24,925 nt of DNA from a virus. Taxonomy: Duplodnaviria; Caudoviricetes. A model generated the notes under the pieces. That model had not been told where the DNA came from and did no database searches. It saw only the letters and a program-made list of their open reading frames with translations. The position numbers and the translations under genes were made by a program. Of the stretch, positions 14,442 through 24,165 are shown in pieces. Positions within the stretch are counted from its first letter, which is position 1, and the number at the start of each line of letters is the position of its first letter. The stretch spans positions 1 through 24,925 of IMG/VR virus record IMGVR_UViG_3300027813_000082. One strand, written 5' to 3'.

Positions 14442-15448
14442 TCAGCAAAGCCGTGCATGATAACAATTCTTGCACCGACATGAGCGGCATCACCAAAGTC
14501 AATTGTTGTCCCTGAAAGAGAATAGTTTTGATCTGGTTCTTGCATAACACCATCCACGTAGACAACAATAGTATTTTCATCTGTGGGTGTTAAGCTCATT
14601 GTAAAAGTTGTAGTTGATCCATCACCTGTAAAAATATCTTTGGTTATTACTGTTGCTTCTTCGGTTCTTAAATTAGACCAAGTACTTCCGTCTTTGGAGA
14701 CTTCGTATTCTGATGTCTGTGTGTTAAATCTTAATACACCTTCTTGTGCTGTTGGTCGTTGTGCTGTGTTACCTGACGGTAGTACAACAGCCGTGTCTGC
14801 TTTGAACAAATATTTTCCTGTTCCTGCTGTGTCGAATTCCATGTCAGCATTAGATGAACCTGTGGACATTTTATTTCCTGAGAATCCAAAGTCACCTGTG
14901 TCTGCTACGTTGTTCTGTAATCCTAGTGTTCCCGAATATCTTGCACCCGAAACATAAACCGACTTGCCTCCAAAGTTTACACCATTGGGCAAATTTGTTC
15001 CTATAAAATGTAATACACCAGATTGATAATCAAAGAACCATTCGTCATTGTTTCCTGAACCACCTGCAAATACTCTTGTACCTGAAGAGGCATTGCCGGC
15101 ATCACTTGCGGTGTATATATAAACTTTTACTCCATATGTTGCACCAAACTCTGGCGGAATCCAATCAGTTAATCCTGTCTTCCATGATCTGTTTGTTGCC
15201 GCGGTTGCATCATTCGAAGCTTCGTCTGGAGCACTTGTAGGATAAACTGTAACAACACCTGAGCTTGACCCTGGGATGGTTGCAGGAATGCTACTTGCTT
15301 GGTTCCAAGTCTTGTCACCTCTTAATAATAATGGAGATGCAATGGCTTCATTGGGTGCCGCCTTGTTGGCATTGGTATCTGTTTTAGTCGCACCATATCC
15401 AATCTTCTTCCAAAGATAGTCTACTTTTTTTGCGTCAGTTATTGCCAT
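14438..15448 (-). CDS. Virion structural protein (336 aa)
   Basis: KVDYLWKK...DWIPPEFG...WFFDYQSGVLHF globular domain, then LPSGNTAQRPT..LRFNT and FTGDGSTTTF modules; TAATG coupling to the upstream gene. Confidence 0.75.
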   Translation of the reverse strand: MAITDAKKVDYLWKKIGYGATKTDTNANKAAPNEAIASPLLLRGDKTWNQASSIPATIPGSSSGVVTVYPTSAPDEASNDATAATNRSWKTGLTDWIPPEFGATYGVKVYIYTASDAGNASSGTRVFAGGSGNNDEWFFDYQSGVLHFIGTNLPNGVNFGGKSVYVSGARYSGTLGLQNNVADTGDFGFSGNKMSTGSSNADMEFDTAGTGKYLFKADTAVVLPSGNTAQRPTAQEGVLRFNTQTSEYEVSKDGSTWSNLRTEEATVITKDIFTGDGSTTTFTMSLTPTDENTIVVYVDGVMQEPDQNYSLSGTTIDFGDAAHVGARIVIMHGFAD

Positions 15449-18400
15449 TACCCTGCTACTCCTACTGATAATGCTGTTACACTATCACCTGAATTTAATT
15501 TTATTCTAACCAAACAAGTGTTACCTACCGAGTTCGCTAGACTTTCTGTACCCAGTGTGAACGTGAATGTTTTTCCTGAATATGTAGTGTTGTCAACTAC
15601 CCTGTCTCCACCTGTCTTGGCACAACCATCAGAACCATTTCCTCCGCCACCTGACCCTGGTTGTCCTGAACCATTGTACTGTGTTGAACAGTCTAACCAG
15701 CCATTTGACCCCGAAGAACTATCTACTCCTGTTCCTGGCATAGCAATAAACATGCCTGACACTTTGCCTGACATCGTTATTGAGAACTGTGATACAGGAG
15801 TTCTTCTAAATGCAAAGGTATAGTACTGTGCTTGACCACCATCTCTACCCGATGTTAAGTTAGGACCAGCTGGAAGATATCCACTGCTTAAATTAGTTGT
15901 AAAATGTTTGATTGTTCCGAATCTTGATATGGCTTCGGTAGTCCCCGCCACAGTAACAGCACCAGACCAAGCATTGCCTGTGTAGTAGTTAGTGGACGAA
16001 TTGAAAGACGGTGTGTCTGACGAGGATCCGAATCCTGTTATCCTTAGAGCATCGTCAATGTGAGTACTGCCGTTCCCTAATGAATCTGATACTGTGATAC
16101 CTCCTGCTTCATTATCTAATCCTGATACTGATGCAGTGTACACTTGAATTTTTGTTGAACTAGAATTGTAACTTCCGTCTCCGTTTGCGTTCTTGCTCAT
16201 TGCTTTAATTGTTTTTACAGACTTAACACTTGAACCTGTTATTGGAACTGTCACGGCTCCTATAGTGTAAGCACTGCCAACACCAATGTCTGACTTGGGA
16301 ATACTCGAACTTAACATGGTAGTTGACCCGTCCACGTTGGCATATGTAAAGTTAGAATTTGTTATTACATCACCTGATGTTGACTCTTGGTTGGTGTCAT
16401 TGTCAACTTTGTGTGGTGAAGTAGTTTCTTGGTATGCTTGACCTGTAAAGTTTGCAATAGTTGTTCCTGTAACTGTAACTGTTGGTGATCCTGCGTCATA
16501 GTATGGAATACCTGACACATATTGTTTAGTTCCTGCTGTGCCTTCTGCCACTGTGCCTATTGCAGTGGTTGGTACTGCTGTGATATCATCTTTAAGCACA
16601 TGAACAAAGTTTGTGTTACCAGTTGCTGAATGTTCTAGCCTCTGTGCAGTTAAACCCGTTGAATAGTTCGCCAATGTTTTTGTAATTTTTGCAGTGAACA
16701 CTTGGTAAAAGTCTTGCGGATAGGCAGAATCAACTTCATCATAGTCTCTTTGATTTGTTACAACCAACTGTGTATTGTTTTGATTGAACGTTCCGTTCTC
16801 TCCTGCTGACGCTGAAAATGTTACACTGCTACTTTGTCCTGATGTTGCGTTTAACTTCGCTGTTAAGGTGCCTGCGGCTCCGTTATATGCGTTTGATACA
16901 GTGTTTGTGTCAATAGTAGATGTGCTTGAATATCTTCTTGCAACAGTAGTAGTTAATGCAGTTCCTGGGTTCAGTGTGGTTGCTGAACTGGTGTTGTCAG
17001 TAAATCCGTGACACAGTTTAGGTGAAGTACCTTGGGCACTGTCATTCATTGTTAAACTTTTGGTTGATAGGTTTGCTGGTGCACTTGGCACTGCTTTCAT
17101 GGTCCAATTTATTGTTTCTTCATCATCTTGGAAGATGGTGTCTGGTGTACCGTATCCTCTAAATCTTGTTGTAAAGTTTCCTGCACTTGTTCCTGTGAAG
17201 TTTCTTGTCAGTGTCGCTCCAATACTTCCTGCATTGGATCCGTTTTCTGCAACAGTAACCAAAGCACTTGAATCACTGAAGAAATCGTAATCATAGTTGT
17301 CAGCATTTTTAGAGGTGTTTGTAAATGTTGCTGAAGCTCTGTTGGCTCCTGTTAGGTCTGTGTGATCATATAGTGTGTACTGGTTGTTGCCGCCACCTGT
17401 TGACACCTTGTCTGCTGTTGCGGCAATGTTTGCTCTTACATCAGGCTCAACAATTATGTTTATAGCCGCACTACTGTCGGCACCCGAGTGTCCAGTTGCT
17501 AGTGTTAGTGTTGTATTGTAGGTCACAGTTGTTCCAGCATTTTGTTGTGAGCTACTCAAATTAAATGTGTTGTTGATTGTGTTTCCTGTATCACCTGCTG
17601 AACCTGAACCAACTGCAACTGTTACTGTTGATCCTTCATCAAAGTTGTAAGTGTACTGCTGTGTGGCAGAAAAGGCAGAATCGGCACCTGGAAGTGTCGC
17701 TGTGTTGTTTGTGAATGTGACAGGAAATCCTGATGTGCTTTCTTCATTGATTCCTCTAACACTGTTTGCGGCATAGGCCGTAGTGTGTGTAGAGTAAACT
17801 TCAAAATTGTTTGTTCGTGTCTGTGGGAACGTTGATGCTTCCGCAGTAGGGTGTGTAAGCAGTCTTAATTTGATTGCGTACTTGGTATCACCTGCGCCTG
17901 AACCTGCAACTGTTGATCCGTCATCACCTCCTGCATTGGTGTAAGTGTGTGCCAATCTTGCTCCAGCCTGTCCACCTGCCGCCGAGTTACTTGCTATTGT
18001 GTTTTCTGTTCCGTCACCCCAATCAACATCGAATGTGTTTGTGTTTGCAGTGTTTGTAGTAACATTTTTTAGATACACTGTGGCACCTGTGTTGGCTATT
18101 GTAATTGGCGAACCTCCTGATGAGGCCGCATACATTTCAAATTGAACTACTGGTGCTTCTGTGGCAATGGCAAGGTAGTTTGTTCTAGTCAACGATGCTT
18201 CTGACCCTGATGATCCTGTCACTACCGCTGAATGATTGTATGCTCTCACTGTGATTGAAATCTGTCCTGTTGTATTGTATTGGTGAGTCTGAGTGGTAGT
18301 AGATGAACCCGAGTCATTTATAGTTTGTACACTTCCGCCATCTCCCCATGTTATGTCATATCTGGTTGCGTTGCCTGTTGGTGTTATTGTCAACGTAATT

Positions 18401-19113
18401 GTATCTCCGTTGGATATTGATGTCGAACTTGATACAAATGCAACACTTTTAACATAGGTGTTAAGACGTATGTTCTCCATTGTTTCGTTCAAGGCATCTA
18501 TCGCTTCTGTAACTTTTGTTGATGCAGTTAATGAAGTAACTGATCCATCTCCAAAAGATGAGTCACTTGGTGTTGATAATTCTTGGGTCATACCATTAAT
18601 AGGAGTACCAGGAGCTGACAGTGCCGCAACTGAGTTGTCTACATATAATTTTGTTGATGCATCTGAGTTTGCCGCTGGTTCGCCTACTTCTACTTTTGAT
18701 AGTGTAACAGAACCAAAATCTGTTGTGGTTGATCCGTCTTGTGTTGTTGTTCCAAATTTGAATTTTGTTGTGTCTTCATCCCACAGCATCATGGCATTAT
18801 TTCCTGCCGCACCTCTGTTGATCATTACACCAGAATCATTACCCACTGATCCTGAACTGTTTAAGACAATCATGTTGTCTTCTATGGATAAATTTTGTGA
18901 GTCTACTGTGGTTGTAGTACCAGTAACTGTAAGGTCACCAGCAATTCTTGTATTACCAACAACATCTAATTTAAAGTTTCCTGGTGTATCTGTACCTATA
19001 CCGATTCTACCGTTCTGTGCATCTACTACTAATACATTGGTATTGAATGCCAGATCCGTTGTACGAATCAGGTTAGATTCTAATAATTCACCTGCTATCT
19101 TTGTTATCGCCAT
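15448..19113 (-). CDS. Large fibre/adhesin-like virion protein with PKD-like Ig domains (1221 aa)
   Basis: MAITKIAG...DLAFNTN...RIGIGT N-terminus; YDITWGDG...THQY and FDVDWGDG...HTY PKD signatures; very Thr/Ser-rich. Confidence 0.8.
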   Translation of the reverse strand: MAITKIAGELLESNLIRTTDLAFNTNVLVVDAQNGRIGIGTDTPGNFKLDVVGNTRIAGDLTVTGTTTTVDSQNLSIEDNMIVLNSSGSVGNDSGVMINRGAAGNNAMMLWDEDTTKFKFGTTTQDGSTTTDFGSVTLSKVEVGEPAANSDASTKLYVDNSVAALSAPGTPINGMTQELSTPSDSSFGDGSVTSLTASTKVTEAIDALNETMENIRLNTYVKSVAFVSSSTSISNGDTITLTITPTGNATRYDITWGDGGSVQTINDSGSSTTTQTHQYNTTGQISITVRAYNHSAVVTGSSGSEASLTRTNYLAIATEAPVVQFEMYAASSGGSPITIANTGATVYLKNVTTNTANTNTFDVDWGDGTENTIASNSAAGGQAGARLAHTYTNAGGDDGSTVAGSGAGDTKYAIKLRLLTHPTAEASTFPQTRTNNFEVYSTHTTAYAANSVRGINEESTSGFPVTFTNNTATLPGADSAFSATQQYTYNFDEGSTVTVAVGSGSAGDTGNTINNTFNLSSSQQNAGTTVTYNTTLTLATGHSGADSSAAINIIVEPDVRANIAATADKVSTGGGNNQYTLYDHTDLTGANRASATFTNTSKNADNYDYDFFSDSSALVTVAENGSNAGSIGATLTRNFTGTSAGNFTTRFRGYGTPDTIFQDDEETINWTMKAVPSAPANLSTKSLTMNDSAQGTSPKLCHGFTDNTSSATTLNPGTALTTTVARRYSSTSTIDTNTVSNAYNGAAGTLTAKLNATSGQSSSVTFSASAGENGTFNQNNTQLVVTNQRDYDEVDSAYPQDFYQVFTAKITKTLANYSTGLTAQRLEHSATGNTNFVHVLKDDITAVPTTAIGTVAEGTAGTKQYVSGIPYYDAGSPTVTVTGTTIANFTGQAYQETTSPHKVDNDTNQESTSGDVITNSNFTYANVDGSTTMLSSSIPKSDIGVGSAYTIGAVTVPITGSSVKSVKTIKAMSKNANGDGSYNSSSTKIQVYTASVSGLDNEAGGITVSDSLGNGSTHIDDALRITGFGSSSDTPSFNSSTNYYTGNAWSGAVTVAGTTEAISRFGTIKHFTTNLSSGYLPAGPNLTSGRDGGQAQYYTFAFRRTPVSQFSITMSGKVSGMFIAMPGTGVDSSSGSNGWLDCSTQYNGSGQPGSGGGGNGSDGCAKTGGDRVVDNTTYSGKTFTFTLGTESLANSVGNTCLVRIKLNSGDSVTALSVGVAG

Positions 19114-21006: not shown

Positions 21007-21849
21007 TTATCCTAGTGCAATCGCTAATGCGGTAGCCTTCTTTTTACTTATCAGTTCTCCAACGGCTCCTGAACCTATTGCAGTATTTCTAAAGTACAAT
21101 CCTGTTCCTCCACCGCCTGCAGTTTTGTTATATAATACTGTTTGTGCTGTTGCTGTCGGATCTGTTGCCATCGCTGAAAATGTAAGTGTATCGTCAATAA
21201 CCACGTTACCAGTTCCGCTGGCTTTCAATACAAGATCATCATTGGATCTCGTAGTTGTAATTGTGTGATCGTCTATTTTGATAGCATCATTGGCTATTGA
21301 AGTTGTTGCTGTAATATTTCCAGTAACTGCTAATACTGTTCCATCGAATGTTAAATTTGCTTCACCAGTGATAGCATTCGCACCTGTCACAGTGGTAACT
21401 TGATTGTTTGTTGAACCTGTTAATACTGCTCCACCTACCGAGTCCACATAGTTTTTTGTTGCCGCGTCTGATGATGCCGCCGGCTCTGCCACTTGTATTT
21501 TTGCAAGTGCTGTGTCTGTTATCGCTGTACCTGTACCATCTGATGTTGTTGTAACTGCTTTGAATGTGTCATCACCTTCATTCCAATACAGTGCCGCATT
21601 GTTTGCCACACCTCTGTTTACTAAAATTCCTGAGTCAACATCACTTGGTGCTGAATTATTTCTGCTTAAAATTATAATCGGATCTTCGATTGTTAATGAT
21701 GCTGTGTCAATAACTGTGTTGGAACCATCAACTATTAAATCACCTTTTACTCTTGTTGTTTTTGAATCAAAGATTACTGAATTCGAGCCACCTGCACCTG
21801 TGCCCGTTTTAATTGTATAATCACCTGATGTACGTAAATGCTTTGCCAT
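21007..21849 (-). CDS. Short fibre protein (280 aa)
   Basis: TIEDPII..DSGILVNRG..WNE module, PAASSDAATKNYVD motif and C-terminal SKKKATALAIALG. TAAATA (21862-21857) is 7 nt upstream. Confidence 0.75.
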   Translation of the reverse strand: MAKHLRTSGDYTIKTGTGAGGSNSVIFDSKTTRVKGDLIVDGSNTVIDTASLTIEDPIIILSRNNSAPSDVDSGILVNRGVANNAALYWNEGDDTFKAVTTTSDGTGTAITDTALAKIQVAEPAASSDAATKNYVDSVGGAVLTGSTNNQVTTVTGANAITGEANLTFDGTVLAVTGNITATTSIANDAIKIDDHTITTTRSNDDLVLKASGTGNVVIDDTLTFSAMATDPTATAQTVLYNKTAGGGGTGLYFRNTAIGSGAVGELISKKKATALAIALG

Positions 21850-21867
21850 TTGCTATTATTTATGTTG

Positions 21868-21895
21868 AAAAGGGGAAGCGTGTAAACTCCCCCTT
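21868..21895 (-). terminator. Intrinsic terminator
   Basis: AAGGGGGAG...CTTCCCCTT stem with TTTT, after the stop at 21914. Confidence 0.75.
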
Positions 21896-21913
21896 AAAGC
21901 ACGTATAGTTCTA

Positions 21914-22336
21914 TTATCTAACGTCTATTGAACCAAGTCCTGCTACTTTACCTTCGTCAGTTCCTTCAGCACCTAGTGTAAATTTCACTGATCCTGTGGC
22001 ACCTGCCGCTGTAACATAGTGTACTGTGTTGTTAAAGAATTTCGCAACATATCCTACTGTTGAGTCATCTAAAATAACTTGCACACAAAATTGATTTGAT
22101 GTGTTAGCTAGTGAGCCCGGAGCAACTGCTTTTAATTCATAAACTGCTTCTGTTGAATCTTCTAAGTGAATCTTGAATAAACTTGATCCTCTTTGTGATA
22201 CAACATAAGCAACTGTTGAATCAACTTTAGCACCACCTAATGGTCTATAAGCCGTTACTGCTATGTTACCTGATAGGTTACCGCCAAATGCATTCGCATC
22301 GCCAGACATTTTACTTTTTTTTAAGGGTCTTCCCAT
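21914..22336 (-). CDS. Hypothetical late protein (140 aa, MGRPLKK...), possibly capsid-associated
   Basis: Strong SD AAGGAGG 7 nt before ATG 22336; monocistronic unit near the MCP. The upstream extension in the ORF track crosses a terminator and a promoter. Confidence 0.75.
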   Translation of the reverse strand: MGRPLKKSKMSGDANAFGGNLSGNIAVTAYRPLGGAKVDSTVAYVVSQRGSSLFKIHLEDSTEAVYELKAVAPGSLANTSNQFCVQVILDDSTVGYVAKFFNNTVHYVTAAGATGSVKFTLGAEGTDEGKVAGLGSIDVR

Positions 22337-22446
22337 TTTGTTTCCTCCTTTAAAGGAGTCCAATCCTAGTTCTCCTAGGTACGCAGTTGTTATCTGCATA
22401 AGTCTTTTACGAGATGTAAAAGCACGTGTTGAACTATGTGTATTTA
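22337..22446 (-). ncRNA. Candidate cis-regulatory structured 5' leader RNA (four-way junction) after TAAATA (22446-22441)
   Basis: P1 AGUUCAA/UUGGACU closes three hairpins (CUUUUAC/GUAAAAG, UAUGCAG/CUGCGUA, CCUAG/CUAGG), followed by a CUCCU/AGGAG hairpin over the SD. Confidence 0.6.
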
Positions 22447-22475: not shown

Positions 22476-22532
22476 AAAAAGAAAAAGAGTGATGTGCCAC
22501 AATCCAAAAAAAGTCAGACACACCACTCTTTC
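22476..22532 (-). terminator. Long-stem, large-loop terminator-like hairpin
   Basis: AAAGAGTGGTGTGTC/GGCACATCACTCTTT (15 bp, 2 G-U), 18-nt loop, then TTCTTTTT. Confidence 0.65.
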
Positions 22533-22557: not shown

Positions 22558-22791
22558 TTATTTTCTATTGTAGATATGATATAAAATCCATACTGCTACC
22601 AACCCTATCAGACCTTGATCTGAAAAGCCTTGCAATATGCCTTGTATGTTTCCTATTACAGAAACGTTTGGCCAGAACGGAACGTTCTGCCCTTTGAAAA
22701 GGATTTCTAAAACGATTCCTAACGCTATAAGTGAAACACCTACGTCAGCAAGAGCTTTTGCCCATCCTTTTATTTTCATTGCGATATCCAT
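22558..22791 (-). CDS. Small membrane protein (77 aa, two hydrophobic segments)
   Basis: SD GGGAGG; hydrophobic VGVSLIALGIVLEILF and GLIGLVAVWILYHIY; own promoter and terminator. Confidence 0.8.
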   Translation of the reverse strand: MDIAMKIKGWAKALADVGVSLIALGIVLEILFKGQNVPFWPNVSVIGNIQGILQGFSDQGLIGLVAVWILYHIYNRK

Positions 22792-22992: not shown

Positions 22993-24165
22993 TTATTTGA
23001 ATTTTAAGTTTGCACTTGTGATCGCAACTTTTCCAACGTAATCTGCCGCGTTACCAAGAGATGATGCAGTGTTTGTTAACTCTACATAACCGTATCTTGT
23101 TAAGAAGCCTACTACTGGTTCGAAAGTAGCTGGATCTAGTACAACACCTGAAGACATTAAAGGAATGTAAGGACAATAAAACGCTGGTGCGTCTGCCTCA
23201 CTTGCTCCTTTGTAACCTACAAGTACATCTGTACTGTCTGCCGCATATGCGTCAACGTATACTCTCATAGCACCGTTAAGTGTACCTACAAATTTAGTAT
23301 TTGTTGGTGACTCAAATGTACCTTCTGTTGATCTAGCAAATGCTGAAGTAGTTGCTGACTGAAGAATAGTTAAAGCTGTTGGTGATACTACTGCGTAGTT
23401 ACCAGCGCCTCTTCTTGTTCTTGTAGCTATTTGGTTAGCAACTCTGTTAACTAGAACAGCCAAAGCGGCATGTTCATCGCCAACGAAAGTAGCTGTACCA
23501 GATACAGCCGCTTGGTCAAAAGTCTCAGTAGCCGTTCCAGCTAATGTTCTTAATGAACCAATTACTTCTTGGTCGATTTCTGCAGTAATTTCTTGAGCTA
23601 ATGCCGCCATAATTTCTGCTTCTACATCGATTCCTTGTTGTGCTTGAGCATCTTGAGCCGCTTCAAACGTCCATCTAGCTGATAATTTTCTAGACTTGGC
23701 TTCAACCGGTTGTTTTAAGATCTGGATTGATAATCTTTTTCCAGGTTCACCTTCTAAAGAAGCTGTTGAAGCCGCTTTTGGAGCTGAGTTGTTCTGGTTT
23801 CCAGAGTATGCTTTCGCAATTTTGAATGGAGATAGTGCTTCTTCACCTGCTGTCGTGTTTGACGCAACTGAGTCTGCATATCTTATTCTAAGTGTGTGAA
23901 TTTGTCCTACTGGACCAGTCATAGGCTGTACACCAACGATTTCGTTAGCGATAACAGTCGGCATAACCCGTCTAATTACTGGTAGGATAACTCTGTTTAA
24001 CGTAGCAACGTTACCGGCACTTGTAGCACCAGCTGTAGATTGTTCTGAAAGGTATCTCTTAGTATTTTCTAAGATAACATCCATAGTCTTCTTTTTGTTA
24101 CCAGCTAAACCTTCTGTAAGAGCGGCTTTAGTTTCGCCCCATTTTGATTCAAATATATCTGACAT
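22993..24165 (-). CDS. Major capsid protein (T4 gp23-like), 390 aa
   Basis: VIRRVMP..IANEIVGVQPMTGPVGQI, VEAKSRKLSARWTFEAAQD, EITAEIDQE, TRRGAGN, FYCPYIPL and TRYG hallmarks. Confidence 0.97.
   Translation of the reverse strand: MSDIFESKWGETKAALTEGLAGNKKKTMDVILENTKRYLSEQSTAGATSAGNVATLNRVILPVIRRVMPTVIANEIVGVQPMTGPVGQIHTLRIRYADSVASNTTAGEEALSPFKIAKAYSGNQNNSAPKAASTASLEGEPGKRLSIQILKQPVEAKSRKLSARWTFEAAQDAQAQQGIDVEAEIMAALAQEITAEIDQEVIGSLRTLAGTATETFDQAAVSGTATFVGDEHAALAVLVNRVANQIATRTRRGAGNYAVVSPTALTILQSATTSAFARSTEGTFESPTNTKFVGTLNGAMRVYVDAYAADSTDVLVGYKGASEADAPAFYCPYIPLMSSGVVLDPATFEPVVGFLTRYGYVELTNTASSLGNAADYVGKVAITSANLKFK

What the first reader, a model, noticed from the sequence alone, without database searches (positions are those of the whole stretch)
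22337..22446. Cloverleaf 5' leader RNA with alternative pairings around the ribosome-binding site
Seen: after TAAATA the minus strand reads AGUUCAA-CACGUG-CUUUUAC(AUCUC)GUAAAAG-ACU-UAUGCAG(AUAACAA)CUGCGUA-CCUAG(GAGAA)CUAGG-A-UUGGACU-CCUUUAAAGGAGG-AAACAAA-AUG. A 7-bp closing stem starts about where a late transcript should start and encloses three hairpins. Competing pairings exist: CUCCU can pair with the SD AGGAG or with a second AGGAG inside the third hairpin, and the 5' UAGUUC can pair with GAACUA. Many other late genes here have almost no leader, so a 100-nt folded leader stands out. Inference: a cis-regulatory RNA (protein-bound translational operator, riboswitch-like switch or tRNA-like mimic) controlling an unknown late gene near the capsid gene. 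I do not recognise it as a named family.
Basis: partly seen in the sequence, partly recalled or inferred. Interest (0 to 1): 0.8.

Follow-up and report, generated by a model that had tools for sequence, protein, structure and literature searches.

The report
Known freshwater-2 phage leader RNA
The folded leader is real but is a copy of an already catalogued, unexplained RNA motif (Rfam freshwater-2); here it heads a likely virion-protein gene just after the capsid gene of an uncultured marine giant phage, and it is predicted to hide that gene's ribosome-binding site.

Summary
The structure is in the sequence as described (fold z -4.1). It is Rfam RF02980 freshwater-2 (71.6 bits against a cut-off of 49.9), so the novelty claim fails. 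This scan already found the same motif on three other genomes.

Among 210 distinct related leaders, 205 follow a TAAATA late-promoter motif and 205 precede one gene family (MGRP/MARG/MARP starts). That family has a mass-spectrometry-confirmed virion homologue, gp383 of phage PA5oct. The three hairpins are the conserved core.

The closing stem and the hairpin over the ribosome-binding site belong to a 'long' form (93 of 210, including this window). The 'short' form lacks them, and its middle loop can often pair with the start codon instead (74 of 117).

Best reading (0.45): a protein-bound translational operator that limits output of a virion surface-anchor protein. The binding partner and the direction of control are inferred only. 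What this adds to the Rfam model is modest: about 14 more conserved 5' bases, the identity of the gene, and two interchangeable ways of masking translation initiation.

The parts
22441..22446 (-). TAAATA late-promoter-like motif; transcription start inferred at about 22435
   Evidence: Sequence. Present upstream in 205 of 210 leaders. ATAAATA is proposed as the late promoter of the related jumbo phages CBB and GAP32 (PMC5259590, passages).
22429..22435 (-). P0 5' strand AGUUCAA (outside the Rfam model)
22402..22425 (-). P1 hairpin, including the conserved G-N-R-C/G-A-C base with a 2x1 internal loop; the Rfam model starts only at 22421
   Evidence: 179 of 205 leaders, by a script that favoured a G at that place; the window fold shows the same extension
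22380..22400 (-). P2 hairpin UAUGCRG/CYGCGUA, near-invariant, with one G-C/A-U covarying pair
   Evidence: G-C 150, A-U 60, no mismatch in 210. Pattern present in 55 of 55 loci fetched by protein alone.
22365..22379 (-). P3 hairpin: freely covarying stem, conserved loop (U/G)AGAAC
   Evidence: 5 of 5 pairs with two-sided changes, 97.3% of cells paired; loop counts
22357..22363 (-). P0 3' strand UUGGACU (long form only)
   Evidence: 93.9% of cells paired in 51 long leaders, mostly one-sided changes
22343..22357 (-). Anti-SD UCCUUU and SD GGAGGA, forming the predicted SD-masking hairpin
22334..22421 (-). Rfam RF02980 freshwater-2 match, model positions 1-84 of 84
   Evidence: 71.6 bits, E 2.4e-9
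21914..22336 (-). 140-aa MGRP-family gene; likely virion (capsid-surface anchor) protein
21870..21895 (-). Hairpin after the gene with a short T tail; possible terminator
   Evidence: Read from the sequence; not flagged by the scan
22485..22530 (-). Long hairpin plus T run after the 77-aa gene; possible terminator that insulates the leader's own promoter
   Evidence: Read from the sequence; not flagged by the scan
22993..24165 (-). Gp23-type major capsid gene (context)
   Evidence: Pfam PF07068, E 5.9e-99

Best explanation
This is a freshwater-2 RNA forming the 5' leader of a late gene for a likely virion surface-anchor protein, and it most likely works as a protein-bound translational operator that keeps the ribosome-binding site masked. 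Shown: family membership, position between a TAAATA motif and the gene, covarying hairpins, and the tie to this gene family. Predicted: the folded leader masks initiation, by an anti-SD hairpin in the long form (this window) or by pairing of the P2 loop with AUGG in the short form. Inferred: the invariant core (P1 internal loop, P2 stem, AGAAC loop) is the binding site of a late phage protein, most simply the unassembled gene product itself. That protein would stabilise the masked state and so match the supply of this protein to capsid assembly.
For: Rfam 71.6 bits. The leader is present in 55 of 55 loci fetched by the protein. It precedes MGRP/MGRS/MARG/MARP starts in 205 of 210 cases (MARG is homologous; MARP is grouped by its start motif). 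Loop and stem letters are invariant beyond what pairing needs, as expected of a recognition site. The anti-SD keeps 4 pairs with GGAG in 89 of 94 long leaders, including two positions outside P0. Median computed SD unpairing is 0.24 in long versus 0.78 in short leaders at 25 C. The short-form loop pairs 4 or more bp with the AUG region in 74 of 117, against a shuffled mean of 12.5 and maximum of 25, and a GCCA loop appears only with an AUGGC start (7 of 7, one clade). The forms swap in front of near-identical proteins (L003, L248). The gene family is virion-associated: PA5oct gp383 is annotated ESI-MS/MS structural (hhalign 97.2%), and longer homologues carry PA14/GLEYA, fn3 or Ig/LamG domains. 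The protein has a basic N-terminal arm and a predicted pair of small SH3-like barrels.
Against: No binding or regulation was measured. The proteins behind the leader are only about 17-25% identical between forms while the RNA core is invariant, which fits a conserved outside factor better than self-binding. Five of 210 leaders precede MATK/MATR/MANT genes, and the one tested (L117) is not homologous (hhalign 0.3%). PA5oct and Phosso have the gene with a short leader and no RNA. The fold matches are weak (Z 5.1 or less, rmsd 2.1 over 50 residues). Two short leaders with AUGGC starts (L191, L198) show no compensation. In this window the P2 loop cannot pair with the start codon. Removing the P0 5' strand lowers computed SD access (0.24 to 0.08), so a bound cloverleaf could activate rather than repress.
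Confidence: 0.45

Rival explanations
1. The leader is a positive element. A factor that binds the folded cloverleaf (P0 closed) frees the SD or recruits ribosomes, so the gene is switched on only late, or is translated strongly.
For: P0 and the anti-SD overlap by two bases, and computed SD access rises when the P0 5' strand is present (median 0.24 versus 0.08; 43 of 91 gain more than 0.1). A virion protein needed in many copies would favour activation (inference).
Against: In this window P0 and a slid SD hairpin coexist in the minimum-energy fold, and the SD stays masked. Short forms have no P0.
Confidence: 0.2
2. The RNA is a constitutive 5' stabiliser or folding module that protects an abundant late mRNA and sets a fixed translation rate, with no switch. 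The invariant bases make tertiary contacts (for example the P3 loop docking on P1 or P2).
For: It begins at the inferred start of transcription in 205 of 210 cases. RNA contigs from two marine studies cover leader plus gene. P2 and P3 abut with no linker.
Against: It does not explain why each form keeps its own pairing to the initiation region, nor the near-exclusive tie to one gene family.
Confidence: 0.2
3. It is a small-molecule or ion riboswitch with two translational expression platforms.
For: It has a compact invariant core with a multi-way junction and alternative SD or AUG masking.
Against: The downstream gene is a virion protein with no metabolic link. There is no match to any riboswitch family even at E 10 or less. 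It was found only in phage context.
Confidence: 0.08
4. The leader is processed into a stand-alone small RNA (tRNA-like or packaged) that acts in trans.
For: The long form has a cloverleaf outline, and the 7-nt P3 loop resembles a T-loop (recalled resemblance, not tested).
Against: ARAGORN finds no tRNA. The closing stem is absent from 117 of 210 leaders. The RNA always abuts an SD and AUG, and the RNA contig runs from the leader into the gene.
Confidence: 0.07

Closest known systems
freshwater-2 RNA, Rfam RF02980 (Cis-reg; attribution to the 224-motif survey PMC5737381 is recalled: the main text does not mention it and the supplement could not be read)
   Same: Full-length match above the gathering score: three hairpins, P2 sequence, AGAAC loop, UUGGA tail, SD and AUG.
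   Different: The Rfam model begins inside P1, leaves UUGGA unpaired, and so has no P0, no G-N-R-C/GAC base and no anti-SD pairing. It reaches its cut-off for only 10 of 20 short-form leaders tested.
T4 gene 32 autogenous translational operator and the candidate GP20/GP32 leader RNAs of T4-like phages (PMC10690425, passages)
   Same: Structured leader directly upstream of one phage gene family, with proposed or shown translational control by protein binding.
   Different: Unrelated sequence and fold; a different gene. Self-binding is shown for gp32 and untested here.
PA5oct gp383 (EST35_0383) and the Sinorhizobium phage Phosso homologue
   Same: Homologous N-terminal MGRP domain; TAAATA upstream; gp383 is detected in virions.
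   Different: They are longer (326 and 234 aa), lie away from the capsid gene, and have a short leader without the RNA.

Membership tests
freshwater-2 RNA (RF02980) | Covariance-model score at or above the gathering threshold (49.9 bits) over the whole model | tested here: met
   71.6 bits, positions 1-84 of 84
freshwater-2 RNA (RF02980) | Three consecutive hairpins with the P2 sequence UAUGCgG/CcGCGUA and an AGAAC loop in P3 | tested here: met
freshwater-2 RNA (RF02980) | SD and AUG directly 3' of the structure (cis position) | tested here: met
   AAGGAG..AAUG aligned to the model; the gene starts at 22336
tRNA / tRNA-like gene | Cloverleaf recognised as tRNA or tmRNA | tested here: not met
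   ARAGORN found 0 genes; no RF00005 match
Known riboswitch classes | Match to a curated aptamer model | tested here: not met
   No riboswitch family among 11 matches at E 10 or less
Riboswitch (any class) | Ligand-dependent structural change | not testable with these tools
   Needs in-line probing
Autogenous translational operator | Leader tied to one gene family and able to mask the initiation region | tested here: met
   205 of 210 leaders; 89 of 94 anti-SD; 74 of 117 loop-AUG; all computed
Autogenous translational operator | The gene product binds its own leader and represses translation | not testable with these tools
   No RNA-protein tool was available; needs a gel shift, toeprint or reporter
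Capsid decoration protein (downstream gene) | Present in the virion | tested here: inconclusive
   The homologue PA5oct gp383 is annotated ESI-MS/MS structural; the window's own protein is untested
Capsid decoration protein (downstream gene) | Fold match to a solved decoration protein | tested here: inconclusive
   Best structural matches are weak small-barrel domains (Z 5.1, rmsd 2.1, 50 aligned)

The most novel reading that the evidence does not exclude
freshwater-2 is a phage-encoded riboswitch: one conserved ligand-binding core wired to two interchangeable translational platforms (anti-SD hairpin or start-codon pseudoknot). It would let giant aquatic phages tune how heavily they coat their capsids with adhesion-bearing anchor proteins according to the state of the host.
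Probability: 0.08. Interest if true: 0.8.

Novelty: new member of a known kind. Interest (0 to 1): 0.3.

Why it matters
The motif is catalogued, so the finding itself is not new. It does make an orphan Rfam family testable: it names the regulated gene as a virion protein of GAP32/PA5oct-like jumbo phages, extends the 5' boundary, and gives two specific masking pairings to mutate. If protein binding is shown, it would be a case of translational feedback on a virion surface protein in a widespread group of aquatic phages.

Tried and rejected
(1) 5' AGUUC pairing with the P3 loop GAACU: 91.5% of cells paired against 90.6% in shuffles, with no true covariation; both strands are present in only 56 of 210 leaders.
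(2) CUCCU pairing with the AGGAG inside P3: the target is present in 47 of 210.
(3) An upstream ORF from the AUG inside P2 (in frame with the gene in this window): the frames are spread evenly across leaders, so it is not conserved.
(4) tRNA: none found.
(5) The RNA in cultured phages: two blastn searches of 50,697 records hit only the SD region; RF02980 passes its cut-off in 0 of 4 related jumbo genomes.
(6) Naming the 140-aa protein: no Pfam or PHROG family; no PDB sequence match; no Foldseek PDB match at E 0.001 or less; ESM Atlas gave only hypothetical or weak hits. The absence of a decoration-protein fold match excludes nothing.
(7) Homotrimer prediction: no verdict, score 0.00; not evidence either way.
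(8) The MAFFT alignment puts P1 out of register (63% paired), so P1 was read by anchors instead.
(9) Host: of 7 GTDB hits, 3 are true leaders in MAG contigs (labelled Pelagibacter, Rickettsiales and Crocinitomicaceae), probably binned phage DNA; this gives no host assignment.
(10) Expression: contigs only, so no start site, strand or level; runs X3 and X7 do not cover the leader.
(11) Literature: searches for 'freshwater-2', 'RF02980' and 'freshwater-2' with 'RNA motif' found no paper on the RNA.

Full report
Observation. It folds into three hairpins closed by a stem, followed by a hairpin over the SD; z is -4.08 and 0 of 200 shuffles fold as well. Rfam places it in RF02980 freshwater-2 at 71.6 bits (cut-off 49.9, E 2.4e-9, full model). 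This is the only match in the window and in the record, which is a virus fragment estimated 7% complete. No other family comes near its cut-off, and ARAGORN finds no tRNA.

Setting. The leader lies 550 nt downstream of a Gp23 major capsid gene (PF07068). Its closest cultured relatives are jumbo phages: Phosso 73%, Vibrio 2.275.O, PA5oct, CBB and GAP32 about 69%. ATAAATA is proposed as the late promoter of CBB and GAP32 (PMC5259590, passages read). Four of the 36 ORFs listed in the window have TAAATA 7-10 nt before the ATG and no SD, so a 100-nt leader does stand out. A gp23 match lies upstream within the fetched flank for 66 of 77 leaders that had at least 1200 nt of upstream DNA.

Distribution. 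All 55 viral loci fetched by the protein carry the P2 pattern in their leader, and Rfam passed 18 of the 20 tested. A DNA-pattern scan returned 120 viral hits; 100 have both the promoter motif and the loop, and 96 of those precede MGRP starts. Pooling all 336 loci gave 210 distinct leaders: 205 with TAAATA; 195 MGRP, 1 MGRS, 7 MARG, 2 MARP and 5 MATK/MATR/MANT. deliberately enriched the exceptions, and P2 invariance is partly built into the pattern-based sets. MARG is a homologue; the one MATK protein tested is not. In several phages the RNA heads the first of two tandem paralogues.

Structure. On 51 long-form leaders, P3 is paired in 97.3% of cells with two-sided changes at 5 of 5 pairs. P2 is paired in 100%, with one G-C/A-U swap. 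P0 is paired in 93.9%, mostly by one-sided changes. P1 varies in length and covaries when read by anchors (its pairing is by construction). A G-N-R-C/G-A-C element at the base of P1 occurs in 179 of 205 leaders (the script favoured that G) and lies upstream of the start of the Rfam model.

P0 is a long-form feature: 6 or more consecutive pairs in 69 of 90 long leaders against 6 of 115 short ones. It has modest comparative support: a matched shortening of both strands (5 leaders) and an A-U to G-C change (3 leaders), against 2 leaders that keep the 3' strand without the 5' strand. On a quick tree of 140 proteins the long/short label changes 8 times. One of these rows, L008, is a long leader that my pattern mislabelled. 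Two true short leaders sit inside the long clade. So P0 is not universal, but it is also not confined to one lineage.

Masking of initiation. In long leaders the four bases that start at the end of P0 pair with GGAG in 89 of 94 cases, and two of those positions lie outside P0. Computed SD unpairing has a median of 0.24 in long and 0.78 in short leaders at 25 C; in the window the GGAG core is under 0.1. It gives 4 or more Watson-Crick pairs in 74 of 117 short leaders (shuffled mean 12.5, maximum 25) and in 2 of 93 long leaders. A GCCA loop occurs only with AUGGC starts (7 of 7, a single clade), but two other short AUGGC leaders are uncompensated. The window's loop cannot make this pairing.

The gene. 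The 140-aa protein has no Pfam, PHROG or PDB sequence match but belongs to a large family (948 hits; 1252 representatives). The profile finds PA5oct gp383 (hhalign 97.2%, E 3.7e-11; hmmsearch 8e-14), which the record annotates as an ESI-MS/MS structural protein. The paper's main text does not name gp383 (PMC7318152, passages). Among 23 proteins scanned, most of them family members chosen for length, 5 add PA14/GLEYA, 1 fn3 and 1 Ig/LamG domains after the shared N-terminal domain, which suggests a virion surface anchor (inference). The model (pLDDT 78) matches uncharacterised proteins of uncultured phages and Atu_ph07, and only weakly matches small SH3/KOW/Tudor barrels. PA5oct and Phosso have the gene behind TAAATA with a short leader and no RNA.

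Expression. Contigs from two marine metatranscriptomes cover the 3' part of the leader and the whole gene (X1 21844-22412, a close relative; X2 21845-22383); X3 and X7 do not cover the leader. Contigs show neither start site nor strand, so this is only a weak hint.

Mechanism. Shown: membership, position, covariation and the gene tie. Predicted: masking of the initiation region in both forms. Inferred: a late phage protein, possibly the gene product, binds the invariant core and holds the masked state (0.45). Rivals are activation (0.2), a constitutive stabiliser (0.2), a riboswitch (0.08) and a trans-acting RNA (0.07). The low protein identity between forms and the 5 leaders in front of a different gene family weigh against strict self-binding.

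Novelty. The motif is catalogued. I recall that it comes from the 224-motif survey (PMC5737381). I saw the outline and passages of that paper; the main text has no 'freshwater', and the supplement, which may already hold some of these details, was unreadable. Three searches found no paper on the RNA. The scan noted the same motif on three other genomes. The additions here are the extended 5' boundary, the virion identity of the gene and the two masking platforms; Rfam's cut-off catches only 10 of 20 short forms tested. Verdict: a new member of a known kind, interest 0.3.

Noticed in passing
window 1024, 13549, 19185 (+) and 21849 (-): Genes whose ATG lies 7-10 nt after TAAATA with no SD: apparently leaderless late mRNAs.
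   Followed up: partly
window 22558-22791 (-): A 77-aa hydrophobic protein between the capsid gene and the leader, with no Pfam or PHROG match. It is common near long-form leaders and absent from the fetched flanks of most short-form loci.
   Followed up: partly
L117, L191, L193, L202, L332: The leader sits in front of a different protein family (MATK/MATR/MANT starts); L117 was tested and is not homologous to MGRP.
   Followed up: partly
L003:2911-3003, L004, L248: A short-form leader in front of a protein 83-84% identical to the window's (L003, L004); L003 and L248 nest in the long-form clade, suggesting a leader swap.
   Followed up: partly
L081:1479-1557 and six relatives: A minimal form in which P1 shrinks to a short palindromic hairpin at the inferred start site; a good small construct for probing.
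   Followed up: no
L072, L073, L225, L229, L231, L289: Tandem MGRP paralogues; only the first carries the RNA.
   Followed up: partly
L076:1335-1405: A tRNA gene between the capsid gene and the leader.
   Followed up: no
L213, L215, L217: Leader plus MGRP gene inside bacterial MAG contigs, probably binned phage DNA.
   Followed up: no
window 15448-19113 (-): A 1221-aa Ser/Thr/Gly-rich repeat protein, probably a virion fibre or surface protein.
   Followed up: no
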